7,819 nt of DNA from Naegleria gruberi (lineage: Eukaryota): NCBI GenBank assembly GCA_000004985.1, contig GG739101.1, one strand, 5' to 3'. The notes beneath the pieces were generated by a model, which saw nothing but the letters and a program-made list of their open reading frames with translations, did no database searches and was not told where the DNA came from. Below are positions 11 through 7,819 of this stretch, one piece after another. Both the position numbers and the translations under genes were made by a program. How positions within the stretch are numbered: the stretch's first letter is position 1; the number at the start of each line of letters is the position of its first letter.

Positions 11-1039
11 CTAGTACACCATGCCTTTGCTGCAGCTATAATATCTTTGTACAGAGCCGAACTTGTAAGTCTTATTATTAATGTGGGATTCTACAAGCCA
101 AATCAACCAGGAATTGTAGGTGTCAGGATTGACATGAACGCCATCAATTCTTTTAGTAAACGGATCGAATGATTCAGATTTACAATAGCCTAAATAATTT
201 ATAATACCACTTTCAGGAGAGAGTAAGGTTTTTTCAGAGAGAGCAATATGATACTTCACCTCCTTCCAGATCTTGGCTATGGCCTGTGCCTTCTCTTGTC
301 CTTGGAGTGTAGACAGGGTCTTGCTATGACTCTCCATCATTTCATCGTATTGTTTTCTCTTTGGTCCAGCAGGAATATTTCCAGTGGCTTCTCTGAGTTT
401 CCAATTCTTTGTTAGAGCCTCTATATCAATGATTGGTTGAGAATTAAGTTTAAGCAACATATCCTTAGAATTATTTTGGATGATTTCTAATTGATAACAA
501 AGTCTTTCCTTCATGGATTGATTAATAGGAGCATTCTTACAACTATCAATAAGAGAATTCAATTGTGTCAACATGATGATGATACATTCTACATTGTGTT
601 CTTCCATGAAAGGATTGGTCATTATTGGAGGATGGAAGCCTTGATTGAATAGTGCTGGAGGAGGTTGATTGAATGATGGATAGCAGTGTTGGAAGGAATT
701 GTTTGGTTGTTGAAGGCCTTGATTGAAATTAAGAGATGGAGTTTGATTGAGTGAAGGATAGTTGGATTGATAACTCAAATATTGATACATGGTATTTGCT
801 TGTTGCAAAAGAGAGTTCAGATCAGATGATTGAACAAGGTTATCAAAGCCTTGGTTGGCTGGTTGAGGTTGGTTGGTAGGTGGATTGAGTTGATCATTGA
901 GGTTGTGTTCTACTAGTGGTAGGGTGTTAGCCTGTTGCAAGTCTAGGTTTGAGCAGCCTAACAAGTCTAAGAATGAGTGCACATCAGATACCTCTTCAGT
1001 GGTGGCAAAGATGTCAACTTTGCCTTCTTCATATTCCAT
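11..1039 (-). CDS. Q/N-rich hypothetical protein (342 aa from the first ATG), possibly a transcription regulator; function not recognised
   Basis: The ORF track gives 11..1120, but its first codon at 1118-1120 is a GTG. The first ATG is at 1037-1039 (MEYEEGKVDIF...), sits in an A/T-rich context, and is taken as the start. The stop is TAG at 11-13. The N-terminus is acidic. The middle is Q/N/P-rich low complexity with recurring FNQG-like motifs (ANQGF, NFNQGL, SFNQPP, LFNQGF). The C-terminal ~150 aa (NWKLREATGNIPAGPKRKQYDEMMESH...SWLIWLVESHINNKTYKFGSVQRYY) are globular and non-repetitive. No homeodomain WFxNxR, zinc-cluster or canonical HMG PxNAF motif was found. Confidence 0.6.
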   Translation of the reverse strand: MEYEEGKVDIFATTEEVSDVHSFLDLLGCSNLDLQQANTLPLVEHNLNDQLNPPTNQPQPANQGFDNLVQSSDLNSLLQQANTMYQYLSYQSNYPSLNQTPSLNFNQGLQQPNNSFQHCYPSFNQPPPALFNQGFHPPIMTNPFMEEHNVECIIIMLTQLNSLIDSCKNAPINQSMKERLCYQLEIIQNNSKDMLLKLNSQPIIDIEALTKNWKLREATGNIPAGPKRKQYDEMMESHSKTLSTLQGQEKAQAIAKIWKEVKYHIALSEKTLLSPESGIINYLGYCKSESFDPFTKRIDGVHVNPDTYNSWLIWLVESHINNKTYKFGSVQRYYSCSKGMVY

Positions 1040-1319
1040 GATGATAACAATTTTAATTTTTTTGATTTCAATAAGGTACAAGTGTGTGATTTTCATGATC
1101 TTTTTAAACTCATTCAACACTACAATCTACACGCACCTAAAGCAACGATTTGGAAAACTAAAACTCTTTTGGTTGACAGGTTTTTTTTATCCAAACCATC
1201 CTACCCAGCATTCTTATTTAGTCCAAATAACACCCACCAAAGCCCACCAAAGCCTCTCACGCAATGTTTAGATGATTATTATCTAAAAATAAAAAAACAA
1301 ATTTAATTTTATTAAAAAA
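1040..1319. promoter_or_regulatory. Divergent (bidirectional) promoter region between the minus-strand gene (11..1039) and the plus-strand gene (starts 1320)
   Basis: The 280-bp spacer between two head-to-head ATGs is very AT-rich. It has an A-tract (ctaaaaataaaaaaacaaat, ~1283-1302) just upstream of the plus-strand ATG and a yeast-like AAAAAAATGG start context. It also contains a T9 run (around 1179-1192) and the tandem repeat at 1234..1253. Confidence 0.45.
1234..1253. repeat. Perfect tandem direct repeat (CCACCAAAGC)x2 within the divergent promoter, embedded in aacaCCCACCAAAGCCCACCAAAGCCtctc
   Basis: Read directly: 1234-1243 equals 1244-1253. The run aACACCCACcaaag is a C-rich island in otherwise AT-rich DNA and partly resembles Rap1-type ACACCCA cores. 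The 9-mer CACCAAAGC also occurs once more on the minus strand, at plus coordinates 4470-4478. Confidence 0.6.
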
Positions 1320-2780
1320 ATGGCCACATATGAAGAACAATTCTTGCCAAATAATGATGATTTGGTTTTAAAGAAACTAGCTTCCGACTTGTTCATCTAC
1401 ATTTCTGAAGATGTTTTAGAATTACGAAAGATTAATCCAAATATTGTATTTCTTATTGATTGGAACTCAATAATGTCTCTTCCCAAAAATTTAAAGTGGA
1501 TAGCTAGAGGACAAGAATTAGGAGCCCAAGAAAATGTTATTCTTTACATGAAATTCTCTAATAGAATTAAATATTTATGTAGAGATTTACCTGCTTGCCT
1601 ATGCAAAGAACCATATAGCAAAAAAGTATTTAATGAATTTAAAAGGATGATTCTTCATATCAAACATAATTCATCATCAATACAAGCTAATGGACGTANN
1701 NNNNNNNNNNNNNNNNNNNNNNNNNNNNNNNNNNNNNNNNNNNNNNNNNNNNNNNNNNNNNNNNNNNNNNNNNNNNNNNNNNNNNNNNNNNNNNNNNNNN
1801 NNNNNNNNNNNNNNNNNNNNNNNNNNNNNNNNNNNNNNNNNNNNNNNNNNNNNNNNNNNNNNNNNNNNNNNNNNNNNNNNNNNNNNNNNNNNNNNNNNNN
1901 NNNNNNNNNNNNNNNNNNNNNNNNNNNNNNNNNNNNNNNNNNNNNNNNNNNNNNNNNNNNNNNNNNNNNNNNNNNNNNNNNNNNNNNNNNNNNNNNNNNN
2001 NNNNNNNNNNNNNNNNNNNNNNNNNNNNNNNNNNNNNNNNNNNNNNNNNNNNNNNNNNNNNNNNNNNNNNNNNNNNNNNNNNNNNNNNNNNNNNNNNNNN
2101 NNNNNNNNNNNNNNNNNNNNNNNNNNNNNNNNNNNNNNNNNNNNNNNNNNNNNNNNNNNNNNNNNNNNNNNNNNNNNNNNNNNNNNNNNNNNNNNNNNNN
2201 NNNNNNNNNNNNNNNNNNNNNNNNNNNNNNNNNNNNNNNNNNNNNNNNNNNNNNNNNNNNNNNNNNNNNNNNNNNNNNNNNNNNNNNNNNNNNNNNNNNN
2301 NNNNNNNNNNNNNNNNNNNNNNNNNNNNNNNNNNNNNNNNNNNNNNNNNNNNNNNNNNNNNNNNNNNNNNNNNNNNNNNNNNNNNNNNNNNNNNNNNNNN
2401 NNNNNNNNNNNNNNNNNNNNNNNNNNNNNNNNNNNNNNNNNNNNNNNNNNNNNNNNNNNNNNNNNNNNNNNNNNNNNNNNNNNNNNNNNNNNNNNNNNNN
2501 NNNNNNNNNNNNNNNNNNNNNNNNNNNNNNNNNNNNNNNNNNNNNNNNNNNNNNNNNNNNNNNNNNNNNNNNNNNNNNNNNNNNNNNNNNNNNNNNNNNN
2601 NNNNNNNNNNNNNNNNNNNNNNNNNNNNNNNNNNNNNNNNNNNNNNNNNNNNNNNNNNNNNNNNNNNNNNNNNNNNNNNNNNNNNNNNNNNNNNNNNNNN
2701 NNNNNNNNNNNNNNNNNNNNNNNNNNNNNNNNNNNNNNNNNNNNNNNNNNNNNNNNNNNNNNNNNNNNNNNNGTTCTTGA
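1320..2780 (+). CDS. Hypothetical protein; only the N-terminal 126 aa are visible (MATYEEQFLPNNDDLVLKKLASDLF...IQANGR), then an N-run; the 3' end is inferred through the masked block
   Basis: The ATG at 1320 lies in the aaaaaaATGg context. The clean ORF 1320-1698 has no stops and protein-like composition. It is divergent from the gene at 11..1039. The frame runs into Ns at 1699. If the 1074-nt N-run is the true length (358 codons), the same frame ends at TGA 2778-2780. The alternative frame ends at TAA 2791-2793 (VLDAVN*). The end coordinate is therefore uncertain. Confidence 0.4.
   Translation: MATYEEQFLPNNDDLVLKKLASDLFIYISEDVLELRKINPNIVFLIDWNSIMSLPKNLKWIARGQELGAQENVILYMKFSNRIKYLCRDLPACLCKEPYSKKVFNEFKRMILHIKHNSSSIQANGRXXXXXXXXXXXXXXXXXXXXXXXXXXXXXXXXXXXXXXXXXXXXXXXXXXXXXXXXXXXXXXXXXXXXXXXXXXXXXXXXXXXXXXXXXXXXXXXXXXXXXXXXXXXXXXXXXXXXXXXXXXXXXXXXXXXXXXXXXXXXXXXXXXXXXXXXXXXXXXXXXXXXXXXXXXXXXXXXXXXXXXXXXXXXXXXXXXXXXXXXXXXXXXXXXXXXXXXXXXXXXXXXXXXXXXXXXXXXXXXXXXXXXXXXXXXXXXXXXXXXXXXXXXXXXXXXXXXXXXXXXXXXXXXXXXXXXXXXXXXXXXXXXXXXXXXXXXXXXXXXXXXXXXXXXXXXXXXXXXXXXXXXXXXXXXXXXXXXXXXS
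1699..2772. other. Run of 1074 N (assembly gap or masked sequence)
   Basis: Counted directly from the sequence. The length is not a round number and is a multiple of 3 (358 codons). The run lies inside the plus-strand ORF that starts at 1320. Confidence 0.95.
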
Positions 2781-3139
2781 TGCAGTTAATTAACAATAGA
2801 CTTTAAAAAGATTGGATCAGAATCAGCTGTTGCCAAAGCAGGACATTCAAATCAAAGAGAAGGAGTATTAGTAATTTGAACAGTGAAAGAGGTAGTAATT
2901 CTCCAATCTATCAGATAGCTTGAACTATATTAATTCTTGAGGTTGGTGTGTAGGTGTTACAACATTTGCAATCAAGAAGAACCAACTGGAACACTATTAG
3001 GATAACTTGTCAAATAACCACTATCGGCACTATCAACATCAGCAATTAATGTACCAAGATTGACACTAACAAGTATTTCTCTTCTGAGCAGGAGTAGAGT
3101 ATTATTGGATTTGTAAAAGTGCCACCAACTGTTCATGCT

Positions 3140-4679
3140 ATACATCAAGTTGAATCTTCCCTCCATGATTTGGTGAGGGAGAACCTTCTCTCTTCCATAT
3201 TGTTCAATAATAGACGTGCGATATTAAACCAACAGCAAGTCATCAACATGATATTCTTATTTGAACCAAATCTTGTTGATGCATCAACATTACCTCAATT
3301 TGTTGAGCATTAGCTACTGCATCCTTAACAAGAATCCATGGTTTAACTTCATCAAATAATTGATTACACTTCTTTAAAATCTTTGTGGCTGCAAGATTGG
3401 CAAATCTCACTTCACATCTTTCTTCATAGGCATTTCTAACTTGTTCTTGTAAATCATTGAGTAATTCAATAAGTTCTTGAGTAGTTTGATTTGGATTTTG
3501 TTCGGCATTAGGGCAATCAAATTGAAGATTTCTGTATTGAATTTCTCCCTCTTCAGCATGGAATTTCTTATTAAAAGCTCTGGTCAATAAATTTCCGAAA
3601 ATATCAGCCAATTCATTCAATAACAGGAAATCTAACGATACTGAAACTACTATCATTACTGAGTACAGCTTCACTCAATAAATAGTAACGTAACAAGTCA
3701 TGTTCAACACTAGTTTGATTCAACAAATCATATGGTGATACAACATTGCCTAAACACTTGGACATTTTGACATCATTGACAAGCCAATATGAGTGAACAA
3801 GAGCCATCAAAAGCAGGCCAGTAAATACCATGGAATTTGAGAATGTCTTTTCCAATAATTTGGACAGTTGGTGGCCAATTGAGTGATTCATTAGCGAGAG
3901 TGGAACCAGCAGTAAGATAATTTGTCAAAGCATCAAGCCAAACATAAATTGTATGTTCCGAATCATCTAGAACTGGAACCAAATAAGTAGAATCATCAAT
4001 ATCAGAATCAGTTGCCAAACTAATGGCCTCAATAATGATTGAACATTAGCACCAGAGTAACTGAAATATCAGCAGCCTTGGTTGTTGTATGAATTTGTCA
4101 AGGCCTTTGTAGAGCTATCCAAACCATCTGTCAATATAATAGTACACACACTACTTCCAGTAAAATTTGAAGAAGCAAAATTAAGATCTTTGACAACTCC
4201 AGATGCAACTATAGAACAATCAATATCTGTGACAGAGATAGATGGTGGCAGATAATTTTACCTACTATAATTCCAACTTCATCACAAATTTCTTTCTCAA
4301 TGCAGTAATATCAGTTGTTGACCAATTGATATTTCACCATAGTTATATCAGAAAAGTTCCCATCAGAAGGAATCTTTGATTAATTGATTGCTTGTATCCT
4401 AGATCATTTCTAGATATTCCTTTATCCAAAGGGGGTGGTCTTTTGTTTGGGTGGTGGTTGTTGGTCTTTGCTTTGGTGCGGGACTAGCATACAAAAGTGA
4501 CCACTCTTCAAACCATAAACCATAATTAAACTTGTTCAAATGAAGATGAGTCGACCAGTTCTTCTTCAACAATATCAAAAAGTAGTATCTTGACCACCAG
4601 CACAACTAACATAGAAAGCACCAAGTTCTTCAGCATCCAACAAATACTTGGCAGTACAGATTTCTGGCTTTAGTGTCAT
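3140..4679 (-). pseudogene. Methionyl-tRNA synthetase pseudogene of the bacterial/mitochondrial (MSM1-like) type, with multiple frameshifts, an in-frame stop and an internal insertion
   Basis: Class-I aaRS KMSKS motif, with flanking residues, as [23 protein letters not shown] at about 3745-3770 (minus strand). MetRS-specific [16 protein letters not shown] and [17 protein letters not shown] at about 3850-3950. Anticodon-domain start FLLLNELADIFGNLLTRAF at about 3560-3620. More N-terminal remnants match MetRS CP-domain motifs: FIQQP at about 4080-4100, and ...N*YYCIEKEICDE (GxIYxGxYEGWYCxxCE-like) with a TGA at 4311-4313 (minus sense) where Gly is expected. These pieces lie in three different frames (ORF-track fragments 3243..3674, 3613..3891, 3773..4018 overlap). 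At least two joins are explained by single-base indels. No intact HIGH motif is recoverable upstream. Boundaries are approximate. Confidence 0.6.
4441..4480. repeat. TG-rich (TG1-3-like) low-complexity tract ttttgtttgggtggtggttgttggtctttgctttggtgcg inside the MetRS pseudogene
   Basis: Read directly. On the minus strand it is CA-rich and would encode a PAPKQRPTTTTQTKDHP segment with no counterpart in MetRS, so it looks like an insertion or expansion. It contains CACCAAAGC (minus) at 4470-4478. Confidence 0.5.
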
Positions 4680-5107
4680 AACTCCTGACAGTTTCTTTTT
4701 TAATGGTCGACAAAATTCAATTAGTTAGTGTACAACATCTTATCAGTGGCAAGATTCAATCCACAGTTATCCTTCTTGGATGGAAGTGGGATTGGGAGAG
4801 TTTGACAGAGTAATCCACAATGAAGCTCTAATCAAACAAATAATTTAAATCATTCATCTATCATAATAGAAAATCACTCACACTGATCTAATTACATTAA
4901 TTCGAGTCAGTCAAGATGGTGTTTGGGTTCACGTTGATAGTACTAGATACAAGAACAAATATTCAATATTTGGAAGTGGATGAACATAATATTATTGTTA
5001 TTGGAGAAGTAGAGAAGGAGGAAAGTACTAATAATAAGTTATGATGGCTCATCCAAAAACACCAATAACAAATAATGGCAACAAAACGTTAGTAAACAAG
5101 GTAGTAC

Positions 5108-5125
5108 TATTCGTTGAAACGAATA
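5108..5125. repeat. Perfect hairpin / inverted repeat TATTCGTtgaaACGAATA (7-8 bp stem) at the edge of a ~110-bp GC-enriched island (about 5125-5235)
   Basis: Read directly: tattcgtt at 5108-5115 is the reverse complement of aacgaata at 5118-5125. The island that follows (ccagccttgtgtatgtggttgaaacaaacaccacaggcagagcaatgtccaatacccatg...gcacatcctggggc) is markedly more GC-rich than its flanks. It lies 3' of the large minus-strand ORF, which stops at 5301. Confidence 0.6.
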
Positions 5126-5241
5126 CGTAACCAGCCTTGTGTATGTGGTTGAAACAAACACCACAGGCAGAGCAATGTCCAATACCCATGTAAAATACCA
5201 GTACATCGCAGCACATCCTGGGGCAAAATTCTCAACCGATA

Positions 5242-5251
5242 TTTTTTTTTT
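5242..5251. repeat. T10 homopolymer (A10 on the minus strand) about 50 nt downstream of the stop of the 5301..7819 ORF
   Basis: Read directly. It sits in the AT-rich block 5236-5300 (atttaatattaaatttattatgtaataaaa) between the stop codon and the GC island. It is plausibly part of the 3' UTR / polyadenylation region of the minus-strand gene. Confidence 0.5.
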
Positions 5252-5300
5252 CGTGATTTTATTTAATATTAAATTTATTATGTAATAAAACATGATTGTC

Positions 5301-7819
5301 TTACATGTCTTCCATAATGTTAATGGCCATATCAAAAGCTTGAGTAGCAGCCTCATTATTATACGAAATAATATTTCCAGTTGAATTATTTCCGGATGGA
5401 TTGTATTGACTTAAAACAGTAATTGCAATATGATTATTGCAATTATTGTTGCAAGGAGTGGATTCAGGGTTAGAGTGAATCAATTCTTCAGAAGATACTA
5501 AGGAACATGGTGGGTATGGTTGTTTCAAAAAGTTAATATATGATTGTGTTCTCCTTTCAACAAAATGAAATTTCATATCGAAATAGTTGCACAGCATTAA
5601 CTTTTTCAATCTCGGTATCAAAAACTGAATTAACATTTGATCTTTAAATCCAGGAAACATTCGATCAAGATATGATTCTTTACCGCCATTATGAGAAGTA
5701 TGAGACATAAATTCCTTATCATCAATATGAGCACTTTCAAAACCTTGAGTTTCGTATGGCTTGATAGTTTTGTAAAATTTCAATAAATCTGGCACATGAT
5801 GAAATAAAATGTGTAAATACCAACTTTTTGGTTTCGTTGTGTATACAGTACAATACAGCTTCTCCATTTTACCCAAAAGAATGGATAATCTTTCTTGTTG
5901 ATTCTCATTTAAAGGTTGGGAAATATCAAGCAGATTTGAAATACTACGAAATAATATCAGAAGGGTGTATTGACTACCACAAATATGACCTCTTAAGCAT
6001 TTAAGGTTTTTAAATACGGATTTAACCATATTTCCAGTAAGATAGCACCTGTACATCACCCCTTTTTTGGTTTTGAGTTCACGAAGAGTGAATCTTTCCA
6101 TGTGTTCCATTTTTTTCAAAATGCTAATAACCTTTCTGTTACTACTTAATAACATTATGGAATCAATTAGTAGTCTTTCAACAACTCTCTCTTTCATATG
6201 TAATAGACAAATTATTACTTTGGAGGGAGGAATTGAAAGTATACATCCTAATTCTGTTGCTAATCTAAGTTGATGACGTCTGTCACAAATGGTTGAAAGT
6301 GTCATACAGTAAGGACACATTTGTTTGAAAAGTAATCTACTGATTTTCATTAAGGAAAGTAAATCAGTAGTAACCCAAAAATCAACTTGATAAACAACTC
6401 CATCTACTTCAACACCCTGCTCTCGCATCGTTTCAATCATGAACTTTATCCCATCAGATATTGAACGAAGCTTTTCTTCGCCACCTCTCCATCCAGCAAT
6501 TGGAAAAACATTTTCTCTTGATTTTGGATTTCCAAATGCTTTTGAATTAATTAATTGTAAAGCAAATGTCACCAATCCATCAGCCCCATCAAGATTTAAA
6601 AGATAAATGAATTTCTTTTTAAGAAGATCCAAATCTTCCTTCAAAATATAATCAGAGAGGTGTTTGTCTGCCTTAATTAACTTTACCCACCTTACATGGT
6701 ATCGAATTGTCTCTTTTACCATATGTAAAATATTTACCAAAACCATATTTTCCTCTAAACTCACTCTAATATCAAAGTCTTCAATGGTTTTGATGTTTAA
6801 AATGGAATTTGCCTTACTCAATGTAGATTTACAAACAGTGCCACATTTAGAAATTTGTGTAAAACTTCCATAATTTACGTCAGACATTTTAGACTCTAAT
6901 TTTGCATACGAATCCTTGATCATCTCCTTGGTCAAATAAAAGTCATTATTCCTTGGTTTTTTAGAAGATGATTCTACACCCGCTTCATGTCTTTCACCAT
7001 TCTTCTCAACCTCTCTCTCCTCCAATAGTTTATCATATGCTTCCTCTTCATCATTCACATCCACCCAATCATTGTCATTATCTTCAATACCATTGTCTTG
7101 ACTTTGATTGCCAATTAATTCATCTCTTTTTCGTTTCAATTGCTCATTAGAAGGTGTTTCATCATTCTCATCTTGTAACAATTCACTTTCTTTTGAATGT
7201 GTATTTTCTTGTGTTTGTACTGTTGGAGTTGATTTTGTTGAATTGATTCTTTCAATTGCAACACCATTATTGAACTCTGTAAAATCATCTGCACTATCTG
7301 ATACATCTGACACTTCCATACCAGCATTCACACTTCTGACAATTAATGGCCTTTCCTTTTCAGACTTGGTGGAATACATAGTTACGTACGGGTCTAGCTG
7401 ATGTAAAGGTTCTTTTAGGGTGGTTTGTTTGATTCTTGATAAAAGAACTTCCTTTAATGGAAAATTATTGAAAATGGAAATGAATTGGTCCTCAAAACAA
7501 TTCATAAAAAAATGTAAAAAACTTTCAAAATTCAAATAACCATGATTGAACAACAACAACTCAAACCCAAATAAAAGTTTACCCAATGAACTTTTCGAGG
7601 AACTTTTTGCTTTGACATTGTTTACAATATTAGAAATATTTTTTTGATGGTTGCTGTTAATAACTGATTTACCACAAGTAACCAAATTACATCCTTTTAC
7701 TGAACTATGTGCCATAAATTTGGCACAAGATTTGATGATTTGTTCATTTTCCAATCCAAAATGATATTTAACATCAAAAATAGCTGCATGATTACCAATA
7801 GTGCCAGTAGTTGTAATGA
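5301..7819 (-). CDS. Large hypothetical protein (more than 839 aa, 5' end outside the window) with a DDE/RNase-H-fold transposase-like core (MULE/hAT/Transib-like); a possible DNA-transposon transposase or a domesticated derivative
   Basis: The open frame runs uninterrupted from the window edge at 7819 to TAA at 5301-5303. The ORF-track Met at 7754 is a TTG, and the frame is open upstream of it. Central block: FIYLLNLDGADGLVTFALQLINSKAFGNPKSRENVFPIAGWRGGEEKLRSISDGIKFMIETM...VVYQVDFWVTTDLLSLMKISRLLFKQMCPYCMTLSTICDRRH. This reads as hhxxDGxxx (first Asp strand), then FP-hAhhW, then an acidic helix, then hhhTTD (second Asp), then CxxC about 18 aa later. That spacing is characteristic of MULE/hAT/RAG1-Transib-type transposases. 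Further Cys/His clusters (KCLRGHICGSQY, CNNNCNNH) are consistent with zinc-binding modules. An acidic low-complexity linker (DENDETPSNEQ...NDNDWVDVNDEEE) lies N-terminal of the core. The superfamily assignment is by motif pattern only. Confidence 0.5.
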   Translation of the reverse strand, partial: ITTTGTIGNHAAIFDVKYHFGLENEQIIKSCAKFMAHSSVKGCNLVTCGKSVINSNHQKNISNIVNNVKAKSSSKSSLGKLLFGFELLLFNHGYLNFESFLHFFMNCFEDQFISIFNNFPLKEVLLSRIKQTTLKEPLHQLDPYVTMYSTKSEKERPLIVRSVNAGMEVSDVSDSADDFTEFNNGVAIERINSTKSTPTVQTQENTHSKESELLQDENDETPSNEQLKRKRDELIGNQSQDNGIEDNDNDWVDVNDEEEAYDKLLEEREVEKNGERHEAGVESSSKKPRNNDFYLTKEMIKDSYAKLESKMSDVNYGSFTQISKCGTVCKSTLSKANSILNIKTIEDFDIRVSLEENMVLVNILHMVKETIRYHVRWVKLIKADKHLSDYILKEDLDLLKKKFIYLLNLDGADGLVTFALQLINSKAFGNPKSRENVFPIAGWRGGEEKLRSISDGIKFMIETMREQGVEVDGVVYQVDFWVTTDLLSLMKISRLLFKQMCPYCMTLSTICDRRHQLRLATELGCILSIPPSKVIICLLHMKERVVERLLIDSIMLLSSNRKVISILKKMEHMERFTLRELKTKKGVMYRCYLTGNMVKSVFKNLKCLRGHICGSQYTLLILFRSISNLLDISQPLNENQQERLSILLGKMEKLYCTVYTTKPKSWYLHILFHHVPDLLKFYKTIKPYETQGFESAHIDDKEFMSHTSHNGGKESYLDRMFPGFKDQMLIQFLIPRLKKLMLCNYFDMKFHFVERRTQSYINFLKQPYPPCSLVSSEELIHSNPESTPCNNNCNNHIAITVLSQYNPSGNNSTGNIISYNNEAATQAFDMAINIMEDM

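What the first reader, a model, noticed from the sequence alone, without database searches (positions are those of the whole stretch)
3140..4679. Decayed methionyl-tRNA synthetase (MSM1-like) gene with frameshifts, a stop in a conserved motif and an insertion
All diagnostic MetRS motifs are present in the right order on the minus strand: [34 protein letters not shown] and the anticodon-domain GNLLTRA. The reading frame changes at least three or four times, for example WPAF|LMALVHSYW around 3800-3830 and SNDSSFS|LDFLLLNELAD around 3620-3640, each explicable by a 1-bp indel. A TGA at 4311-4313 (minus sense) sits where the invariant Gly of the GxIYxGxYEGWYC block should be. The HIGH region cannot be recovered. 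The two flanking long ORFs (1029 nt and more than 2500 nt) are perfectly intact in the same AT-rich, homopolymer-rich sequence, so generalised sequencing error is an unlikely explanation. The DALTNY type resembles bacterial/mitochondrial MetRS rather than cytosolic MES1-type enzymes. If this is the organism's only mitochondrial MetRS, the lineage or strain would be translation-deficient in mitochondria and hence respiratory-deficient. Otherwise it is a decaying paralogue.
Basis: partly seen in the sequence, partly recalled or inferred. Interest (0 to 1): 0.65.

Follow-up and report, generated by a model that had tools for sequence, protein, structure and literature searches.

The report
Broken partial copy of MetRS gene
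This is a dead 685-base internal piece of the Naegleria gruberi mitochondrial-type methionyl-tRNA synthetase gene, copied to a second place in the genome; the full working gene sits intact on another scaffold, so it is an ordinary pseudogene fragment with no consequence for the cell.

Summary
The window is a whole 7,819-bp scaffold of Naegleria gruberi NEG-M. MetRS homology is real, but it covers only 3978→3294 on the minus strand.

This stretch matches codons 311-548 of an intact, annotated 636-aa N. gruberi MetRS (XP_002678753.1, on a 537-kb scaffold). Of 224 aligned codons, 220 are identical.

Compared with that parent, the copy has:
- a 2-nt loss at WPAF|LMA;
- a 27-nt deletion (LGKELPETI);
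- a net 2-nt loss at RFPV|KV|NELAD;
- four substitutions, including KMSKS→KMSKC.

So there are two frameshifts and three reading frames. The first ~310 codons (HIGH, GWYC) and the last 88 codons are not found anywhere in the window.

An independent metagenome contig, 99.6% identical to the window, carries the same lesions at the same bases. They are therefore not sequencing errors.

Verdict: a young, truncated, non-functional duplicate. It is not a decayed full-length gene and not the organism's only mitochondrial MetRS. How the copy arose is unresolved, because the parent's DNA could not be retrieved. Interest is low.

The parts
3809..3978 (-). MetRS fragment, segment A (first frame). It corresponds to parent P0128 codons 311-366 ([56 protein letters not shown]). 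Codons 314-366 are 53/53 identical to the parent.
3808..3808 (-). Lesion 1. The codon for L367 is reduced to a single G after a run of four T (GCT TTT G ATG GCT). This is a 2-nt loss and the first frameshift.
   Evidence: The same bases are present in L002.
3622..3807 (-). MetRS fragment, segment B (second frame). It reads MAL then [23 protein letters not shown]...SSFSIVRFPV, corresponding to P0128 codons 368-438. It contains lesion 2, an in-frame 27-nt deletion of codons 370-378 (LGKELPETI) at about 3801-3799. It also carries the substitutions S394C (3756-3754, KMSKS to KMSKC), G409S (3711-3709) and M433I (3639-3637).
3618..3621 (-). Lesion 3. The six bases for K439-V440 are replaced by four (A TTG). 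This is a net 2-nt loss and the second frameshift.
   Evidence: The same bases are present in L002.
3294..3617 (-). MetRS fragment, segment C (third frame). This is part of the anticodon-binding domain, P0128 codons 441-548 (NELADIFGNLLTRA...AVANAQQIE). It is 107/108 identical to the parent; the one change is A486T at 3482-3480.
3243..3293 (-). Read-through tail after homology ends (VMLMHQQDLVQIRISC, then a stop). It begins GTAATG, which the public gene model used as a splice donor. It is unrelated to the parent's continuation ELMFLVAETLRN.
3979..5300 (-). Upstream spacer with no detectable MetRS or other protein-family signal on either strand.
5301..7754 (-). Neighbouring gene: the C-terminal 817 codons of a 950-codon orphan ORF. 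The public model P0121 fuses it to MetRS segment C through a supposed intron of about 1.7 kb.
1320..2780 (+). Neighbouring gene that runs through the scaffold gap (N run 1699-2772). Contig L002 shows it is a 505-aa Tet-like 2OG-Fe(II) dioxygenase paralogue.

Best explanation
Window 3978→3294 (minus strand) is a non-functional partial duplicate of the Naegleria gruberi nuclear gene for the bacterial/mitochondrial-type methionyl-tRNA synthetase (parent XP_002678753.1, 636 aa, on a different 537-kb scaffold).

Only an internal stretch of about 714 nt (codons 311-548) was copied, or only that stretch survives. It covers the second half of the Rossmann fold, the KMSKS loop and part of the anticodon-binding domain. 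It lies between an orphan 950-codon ORF and a Tet-like dioxygenase gene.

Since then it has drifted without selection. It has lost 2 nt, 27 nt and 2 nt, which gives two frameshifts, and it has gained four amino-acid changes. Two of these hit residues invariant across Heterolobosea, including the last Ser of KMSKS.

It has no HIGH motif, no start codon for the catalytic part and no complete anticodon domain, so it cannot make a MetRS. The intact parent supplies the enzyme.

Shown: the homology limits, the lesions, their presence in independent data, and the intact parent and its orthologues. Inferred: neutral decay, and a DNA-level (not retroposed) origin. The copying mechanism itself is unknown.
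For: 1. Source. The 817-aa ORF is 100% identical to a N. gruberi predicted protein whose longest contig is 7,819 bp.
2. Parent. An exhaustive search with segment C found a 122-aa protein at 99% identity and a 641-aa protein (N. fowleri MetRS) at 68%. The 90%-identity cluster of the 122-aa hit contains XP_002678753.1, 'methionyl-tRNA synthetase [N. gruberi NEG-M]', 636 aa, on a 536,960-bp contig.
3. Codon comparison with the parent: codons 314-366 are 53/53 identical, 367-370 are 4/4, 379-438 are 57/60, and 441-548 are 107/108. Codons 370-378 are deleted. There is a 2-nt deficit at L367 and another at K439-V440.
4. Parent integrity. The parent has HIGH at 83-86, KMSKS at 390-394 and an N-terminal stretch of about 55 residues without acidic residues.
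5. Orthologues: 73% identical in N. fowleri, 71% in N. lovaniensis and 63% in Willaertia (alignment A1; hits). S394, G409 and K439, and four of the nine deleted residues, are invariant among them.
6. Independent data. ENA metagenome contig L002 is 99.6% identical to window 2773-7819 (14 mismatches and two 3-nt indels over a 5,050-nt alignment). It has the same gene order, the same three frames and identical bases at all three lesions and both homology ends.
7. Continuing drift. The copy differs between the two sources mostly by coding changes. L002 lost the S392 codon of KMSKS and has F431L. The window has G409S where L002 keeps the parental G.
8. Missing parts. No N-terminal or C-terminal MetRS sequence is found anywhere in the window.
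Against: - The parent's DNA could not be retrieved. DNA-level identity, synonymous divergence, exact breakpoints and whether parental non-coding sequence was co-copied are therefore untested.
- Transcription was not tested.
- Lesions are unevenly spread. Six of the seven differences from the parent, and all three L002-specific changes, fall in the catalytic part. Only one falls in the 108-codon anticodon part (binomial P 0.09 and 0.02, with a post hoc partition). This could hint at residual constraint on that ORF.
- The ratio of indels to substitutions is high for simple drift. Some of the deletions may date from the copying event itself.
Confidence: 0.9

Rival explanations
1. An old full-length MetRS duplicate whose flanks have decayed beyond recognition, and whose central 0.7 kb was recently overwritten by gene conversion from the intact parent.
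For: Identity falls abruptly from 53/53 (codons 314-366) to 3/18 (codons 293-310). By eye, the same frame upstream shows a faint spacing-conserved pattern (LYKGL..P..LL..EAISLA against LLKWL..P..LL..EDLSVS). One weak match to parent residues 553-579 lies about 690 nt downstream, in the part of L002 that fills the window's gap (tblastn E 0.42; frameshift-tolerant score 43 against a shuffle maximum of 41).
Against: The upstream similarity is not significant: 31 of 100 shuffles reach the real score with the true parent, and HMM and Pfam searches find nothing. The downstream match contains a stop codon and lies antisense to an intact 505-codon gene. A converted tract would not be expected to carry three indels already.
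Confidence: 0.05
2. The fragment was picked up and moved by a mobile element, as in Pack-MULE or Helitron gene-fragment capture. The Tet-like dioxygenase and the orphan 950-aa ORF would be the element's own genes. This concerns the mode of origin and is compatible with the main explanation.
For: The fragment is internal, short (0.7 kb) and sits between a Tet-like dioxygenase paralogue (E 1e-12 to PDB 5cg8/4lt5) and a large orphan ORF. In fungi, TET/JBP genes are often carried by DNA transposons (PMC12730594).
Against: No terminal inverted repeats or target-site duplications were found in the window or in the 8.5-kb contig L002. The large ORF has no transposase match in Pfam or the PDB, and no paralogue in the protein database. 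Its structure prediction was unusable (pLDDT 36.8). The cited paper does not report such elements in Naegleria.
Confidence: 0.1
3. The anticodon-domain ORF has been recruited as an expressed piece, either as the 3' exon of a chimeric gene with the upstream orphan ORF (as in the public gene model) or as a small stand-alone protein.
For: The public model P0121 joins the 817-codon ORF to segment C through a GTAAGA donor and a CAG acceptor (and the sequence). Segment C is an uninterrupted ORF that is 107/108 identical to the parent and shows no differences between the window and L002. The catalytic part carries nearly all the lesions.
Against: The model needs an intron of about 1.7 kb and a last exon (IIII, then stop) on the far side of the scaffold gap, which looks like a prediction artefact. 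No transcript evidence is available. Zero differences in 336 nt is expected at 0.3% divergence. The lesion skew is weak and its partition is post hoc.
Confidence: 0.04
4. A functional MetRS gene that only looks broken because of base-calling or assembly errors on a small, low-coverage scaffold.
For: The scaffold is small and contains a gap. Lesion 1 lies in a T homopolymer.
Against: All three lesions, both homology ends and the gene order are base-for-base identical in an independently sequenced and assembled contig that differs elsewhere by 14 mismatches and two 3-nt indels. Even with the frames repaired, about 310 N-terminal codons (including HIGH), 9 internal codons and 88 C-terminal codons are missing.
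Confidence: 0.01

Closest known systems
N. gruberi methionyl-tRNA synthetase XP_002678753.1 / EFC46009.1 (UniProt D2VAU2), the parent gene
   Same: 220 of 224 aligned codons are identical over parent residues 314-548. Motif order is the same ([26 protein letters not shown]-, NELADIFGNLL).
   Different: The parent is 636 aa and intact, with a presequence, HIGH, KMSKS and a full anticodon domain, on a 537-kb scaffold. The window copy lacks codons 1-310 and 549-636, has two frameshifts and a 9-codon deletion, reads KMSKC, and sits among unrelated genes.
Duplicated (non-processed) pseudogene fragments, that is, partial gene duplicates, as catalogued in many eukaryotic genomes
   Same: High identity to an intact same-genome parent, truncation at both ends, frameshifting indels, substitutions at conserved residues, and polymorphic coding changes between strains.
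   Different: Nothing material. The copying mechanism and the DNA breakpoints are undetermined here.
Yeast MSM1 / animal MARS2 mitochondrial MetRS
   Same: Same bacterial/mitochondrial-type class I MetRS family (PF09334). The best named non-heterolobosean hits are animal mitochondrial MetRS at 37-44% identity.
   Different: Those are complete, functional enzymes. The window holds only an inactive internal piece, and the orthologue of MSM1/MARS2 in this organism is the separate intact gene.

Membership tests
Functional class I methionyl-tRNA synthetase (PF09334 catalytic core plus anticodon-binding domain) | HIGH signature and the first half of the Rossmann fold | tested here: not met
   No match to MetRS residues 1-310 anywhere in the window. 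This held for tblastn, Pfam, filter-free HMM searches of six frames, and frameshift-tolerant alignment against shuffled controls.
Functional class I methionyl-tRNA synthetase (PF09334 catalytic core plus anticodon-binding domain) | Intact KMSKS loop | tested here: not met
   The window reads KMSKC, where Ser394 is invariant in five heterolobosean orthologues. L002 reads KM-KC.
Functional class I methionyl-tRNA synthetase (PF09334 catalytic core plus anticodon-binding domain) | A single uninterrupted reading frame (or properly spliced exons) | tested here: not met
   There are three frames joined by 2-nt deficits, with only 1 and 4 bases left at the two junctions. That leaves no room for introns.
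Functional class I methionyl-tRNA synthetase (PF09334 catalytic core plus anticodon-binding domain) | Complete anticodon-binding domain | tested here: not met
   Homology stops at parent residue 548 of 636. Residues 549-636 are not detectable downstream (36 of 100 shuffles reach the real score). The Pfam Anticodon_3 match has E 0.015, below the curated cut-off.
Duplicated (non-processed) pseudogene fragment | Close similarity to an intact parent gene in the same genome at a different locus | tested here: met
   About 98% protein identity to XP_002678753.1, which is on a 537-kb scaffold. The window's flanking genes are unrelated to MetRS.
Duplicated (non-processed) pseudogene fragment | Disabling lesions that are real rather than sequencing artefacts | tested here: met
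   The lesions are identical in the independent contig L002.
Duplicated (non-processed) pseudogene fragment | Evolution without purifying selection | tested here: inconclusive
   Two of four substitutions, and two L002-specific changes, hit invariant residues; 56% of columns are invariant. This fits neutrality, but the counts are tiny and synonymous changes cannot be counted without the parent's DNA.
Duplicated (non-processed) pseudogene fragment | No expression or translation | not testable with these tools
   No transcript or proteome data were available.
Processed (retroposed) pseudogene | 3' end of the mRNA with a poly(A) tract, and flanking target-site duplications | tested here: not met
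   The copy ends 88 codons before the parental stop. The longest A run downstream is 3 nt. No flanking direct repeats were found.
Transposon-captured gene fragment (transduplication) | Element termini (TIRs/TSDs), a recognisable transposase, and multiple copies | tested here: inconclusive
   No TIRs or TSDs. No transposase domain or paralogues for the 950-aa ORF. Genome-wide copy number could not be tested.

The most novel reading that the evidence does not exclude
The uninterrupted anticodon-binding-domain ORF (3620→3243) is not junk. It has been recruited, either as the 3' exon of a chimeric gene with the upstream orphan 950-codon ORF (as the public model P0121 proposes) or as a small tRNA-binding protein. 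In either case it would sit in a Tet-dioxygenase-associated, possibly mobile, locus.
Probability: 0.04. Interest if true: 0.45.

Novelty: new member of a known kind. Interest (0 to 1): 0.1.

Why it matters
It matters little biologically. Partial-duplicate pseudogenes are common, and this one leaves the organism's mitochondrial translation untouched.

The practical value is corrective:
1. It removes a false lead, namely a possible respiratory-deficient lineage.
2. It shows that the public N. gruberi 'predicted protein' on this scaffold is a chimeric gene model that fuses an orphan ORF to a MetRS relic.
3. It shows that the scaffold gap hides most of a Tet-like dioxygenase paralogue, which an independent metagenome contig resolves.

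Tried and rejected
- Alternative genetic codes, tiny introns or programmed frameshifting as explanations for the frame changes. Rejected: the junctions leave only 1 and 4 bases, comparison with the parent shows plain 2-nt deficits, and the flanking ORFs read through in the standard code.
- A 38-nt intron after QQIE (GTAATG...AAG) leading to a continued C-terminal exon. It looked plausible against distant homologues. Rejected once the true parent sequence was available, because there is no significant similarity to residues 549-636.
- Giant-virus origin of the MetRS piece. There was no relative in the viral contig collection, and the parent turned out to be a conserved heterolobosean gene.
- The first homologue search listed only proteins of 446 aa or shorter and at most 55% identical (the few above 50% covered only about half the query). 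It listed no Naegleria protein, which wrongly suggested there was no close parent. The exhaustive representative search with segment C plus the cluster look-up found it.
- Retrieving the parent's DNA. The exact-product look-up failed. A degenerate DNA pattern scan of metagenomes found nothing. The related-loci scan gave only relatives of 47% identity or less.
- Characterising the neighbouring 817/950-aa ORF. There was no significant match in Pfam (one chance-level COXG hit at E 0.042, below the cut-off) and none in the PDB. AlphaFold gave pLDDT 36.8, so no fold search was run.
- Literature searches for Naegleria MetRS, for the ENA project PRJEB11402, and for Naegleria KDZ/TET transposons gave nothing bearing on this locus.
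- Searches for tRNA genes, Rfam families and repeats in the window found nothing relevant.

Full report
**Source of the window.** The 817-codon ORF at 5301-7754 (minus strand) is 100% identical to a Naegleria gruberi 'predicted protein' (P0121) whose longest contig is 7,819 bp, exactly the window length. The window is therefore a whole small scaffold of the N. gruberi NEG-M assembly. The N run at 1699-2772 is a scaffold gap.

- Pfam PF09334 (class I MetRS) matches ORF 3773-4018 (E 4.8e-15, profile positions 230-304) and ORF 3613-3891 (E 1.8e-10, positions 316-371). ORF 3243-3674 gives a sub-threshold Anticodon_3 match.
- I built an HMM from 120 homologues and ran it without filters. It matches three different minus-strand frames at E 3e-34, 7e-21 and 1.5e-17, covering profile positions 169-229, 242-293 and 302-414 of 500.

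- Pfam at E<=10 finds nothing in the three frames of 3960-4760.
- An HMM built for the MetRS N-terminus finds only the known [17 protein letters not shown] piece.
- A frameshift-tolerant protein-to-DNA alignment of window 4046-5300 against an N-terminal consensus and two distant homologues scores no better than shuffled DNA: 7, 23 and 11 of 60 shuffles reach the real score.
- A minus-sense TGA does exist at 4313-4311, but the 'GxIYxGxYEGWYC' context around it is a chance-level match.

**The parent gene.** The first homologue search gave nothing above 55% identity (39-44% for hits spanning most of the query) and no Naegleria protein. It listed only proteins of 446 aa or shorter, which suggests that full-length enzymes were not among the candidates.
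- An exhaustive search with the anticodon-domain piece (window 3626-3246) found a 122-aa protein at 99% identity and a 641-aa protein at 68%.
- Cluster look-up identifies the 641-aa protein as N. fowleri MetRS. It also shows that the 122-aa protein shares its 90% cluster with XP_002678753.1, 'methionyl-tRNA synthetase [Naegleria gruberi strain NEG-M]', 636 aa, on a 536,960-bp contig.
- That protein (P0128) has a basic, acid-free N-terminal extension, HIGH at 83-86 and KMSKS at 390-394.
- It has full-length orthologues in N. fowleri (73% identical in alignment A1), N. lovaniensis (71%) and Willaertia magna (63%).

**Anatomy against the parent.**

| Parent codons | Window (minus strand) | Result |
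|---|---|---|
| 293-310 | 4030→3977 | 3/18 identical (chance level) |
| 311-312 (VP) | 3976→3971 | identical; marks where homology begins (segment A starts at 3978) |
| 314-366 | 3967→3809 | 53/53 identical |
| L367 | 3808 | codon reduced to one G after a T run (2-nt loss, frameshift 1) |
| 368-370 (MAL) | 3807→3799 | identical |
| 370-378 (LGKELPETI) | about 3801-3799 | absent (27-nt in-frame deletion) |
| 379-438 | 3801→3622 | 57/60 identical (S394C, making KMSKC; G409S; M433I) |
| K439-V440 | 3621→3618 | 6 nt replaced by 'A TTG' (net 2-nt loss, frameshift 2) |
| 441-548 | 3617→3294 | 107/108 identical (A486T) |

- After QQIE (residue 548) the window reads VMLMHQQDLVQIRISC and then a stop. 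The parent continues ELMFLVAETLRN.
- With the true parent as query, neither residues 1-305 (against 5300→4000; 31 of 100 shuffles reach the real score) nor residues 552-636 (against 3293→2773; 36 of 100) are detectable.
- So the feature is a 685-nt internal fragment equal to codons 311-548. It has two frameshifts in three frames, one 9-codon deletion and four substitutions. It has no insertion.
- S394, G409 and K439, and four of the nine deleted residues, are invariant in the five heterolobosean enzymes.

**Sequencing error is excluded.** The 122-aa protein is encoded on an ENA metagenome contig, L002 (8,524 bp; ERZ929261, run ERR1078381).
- L002 aligns to window 7819-2773 at 99.6% identity (14 mismatches and two 3-nt indels) and to window 1698-1118 at 99.7%. 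It extends 1.6 kb beyond the scaffold end and fills the gap.
- tblastn with the parent gives the same three frames in L002.
- The bases at lesions 1-3 and at both homology boundaries are identical in the two assemblies.
- The differences inside the fragment are mostly coding. L002 has lost the S392 codon (KM-KC) and has F431L. The window has G409S where L002 keeps the parental G. One further change is synonymous.
- The relic therefore pre-dates the split of the two sources and is still accumulating damaging changes.

**Interpretation.** This is a truncated duplicate pseudogene fragment, and the intact parent gene lies elsewhere in the genome. The important correction is that most of the gene was never here, or was lost wholesale, rather than having decayed in place.

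A retroposed origin is unlikely. The copy stops 88 codons short of the parental stop, and there is no A run longer than 3 nt downstream.

Transposon-mediated capture is possible but unsupported. There are no TIRs or TSDs in the window or L002, and the large neighbouring ORF has no transposase signature. Its AlphaFold model is unusable (pLDDT 36.8).

An 'old copy plus gene conversion' history cannot be excluded without the parent's DNA. I could not obtain that DNA. The flanking similarity that this history predicts is not significant.

**A weak loose end.** Nearly all lesions fall in the catalytic part, and the 108-codon anticodon part has only one conservative change (P 0.09 to 0.02, with a partition chosen after the fact). 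Together with the public model that splices this ORF onto the upstream gene, this leaves a small chance of exaptation. The model needs an intron of about 1.7 kb and a last exon beyond the scaffold gap, so it is more likely a prediction artefact.

**Surroundings.**
- Downstream of the fragment (in its minus-strand sense) the convergently oriented gene starting at 1320 (+) runs through the gap. In L002 it is a 505-aa protein that matches the Naegleria Tet-like dioxygenase structures 5cg8 and 4lt5 at E 1e-12, with the HxD...H...R pattern visible in the sequence.
- The 817-codon ORF is the C-terminal part of a 950-codon orphan ORF.
- The remaining spacer DNA (3979-5300 and 2773-3293) has no protein-family signal on either strand.
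- The window has no tRNA genes and no Rfam matches.

**Verdict.** This is an ordinary, young, partial-duplicate pseudogene of the mitochondrial-type MetRS gene. It is a new instance of a well-known kind of feature, of low interest, and useful mainly for correcting the annotation.

Noticed in passing
window 1320-2780 (+), including the N gap 1699-2772; L002 6797-8314 (-): The ORF that runs into the scaffold gap is a 505-aa Tet-like 2OG-Fe(II) dioxygenase paralogue. phmmer gives E 1e-12 to the Naegleria Tet-like dioxygenase structures 5cg8/4lt5, and the HxD, distal H and R are present. Most of it is hidden by the gap in the public scaffold, and the independent contig L002 recovers it.
   Followed up: partly
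window 5301-7819 (-); L002 1264-4116 (+): The 817-codon ORF is the C-terminal part of a 950-codon ORF that runs past the scaffold end. It is an orphan: it has no homologue other than itself in the word-indexed search of the 5.8-billion-protein database, no credible Pfam match (one chance-level hit at E 0.042) and no PDB match. Its AlphaFold model is unusable (pLDDT 36.8). It lies next to a Tet-like gene, so a transposase role is conceivable but untested.
   Followed up: partly
window about 5302→3572, 3294 and about 1282 (minus strand): The public N. gruberi protein P0121 (791 aa) is a chimeric gene model. It joins the orphan ORF, through a supposed intron of about 1.7 kb, to the MetRS anticodon-domain relic. 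It then uses the GTAATG after QQIE as a donor to reach an 'IIII-stop' exon beyond the scaffold gap.
   Followed up: yes
L002 (ENA ERZ929261, run ERR1078381, project PRJEB11402), 8,524 bp: A contig labelled as metagenome is 99.6% identical to this N. gruberi scaffold. It extends the scaffold by 1.6 kb and closes its gap with 1,291 nt, where the scaffold has 1,074 N. So a close N. gruberi strain is present in that sample. No paper citing the project was found.
   Followed up: partly
window 3290-3282 and 3249-3241 (minus strand): There is an exact 9-nt direct repeat, ATGTTGATG, 41 nt apart, immediately after MetRS homology ends. The two flanking stretches are otherwise dissimilar. It may be microhomology left by the rearrangement, or it may be chance.
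   Followed up: no
L002 6825-6905 (+), inside the window's N gap: There is a weak match to parent MetRS residues 553-579: 41% identity with one internal stop, tblastn E 0.42, and a frameshift-tolerant score of 43 against a shuffle maximum of 41. It lies about 690 nt downstream of the fragment and antisense to the Tet-like gene. It is probably chance, but it could be a remnant of the missing C-terminal part.
   Followed up: partly
window 11-1048 (-): A 345-codon Gln/Asn-rich ORF has no Pfam match. It was not investigated further.
   Followed up: no
L001 (Logan SRR22388222 contig, 4,135 bp): The MetRS hit with the highest identity among those spanning most of the query in the first search (P0002, 44%) comes from an unidentified eukaryote. 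There the gene is split into two called ORFs (120 aa and 387 aa), probably by an intron. It is unrelated to the Naegleria locus.
   Followed up: no
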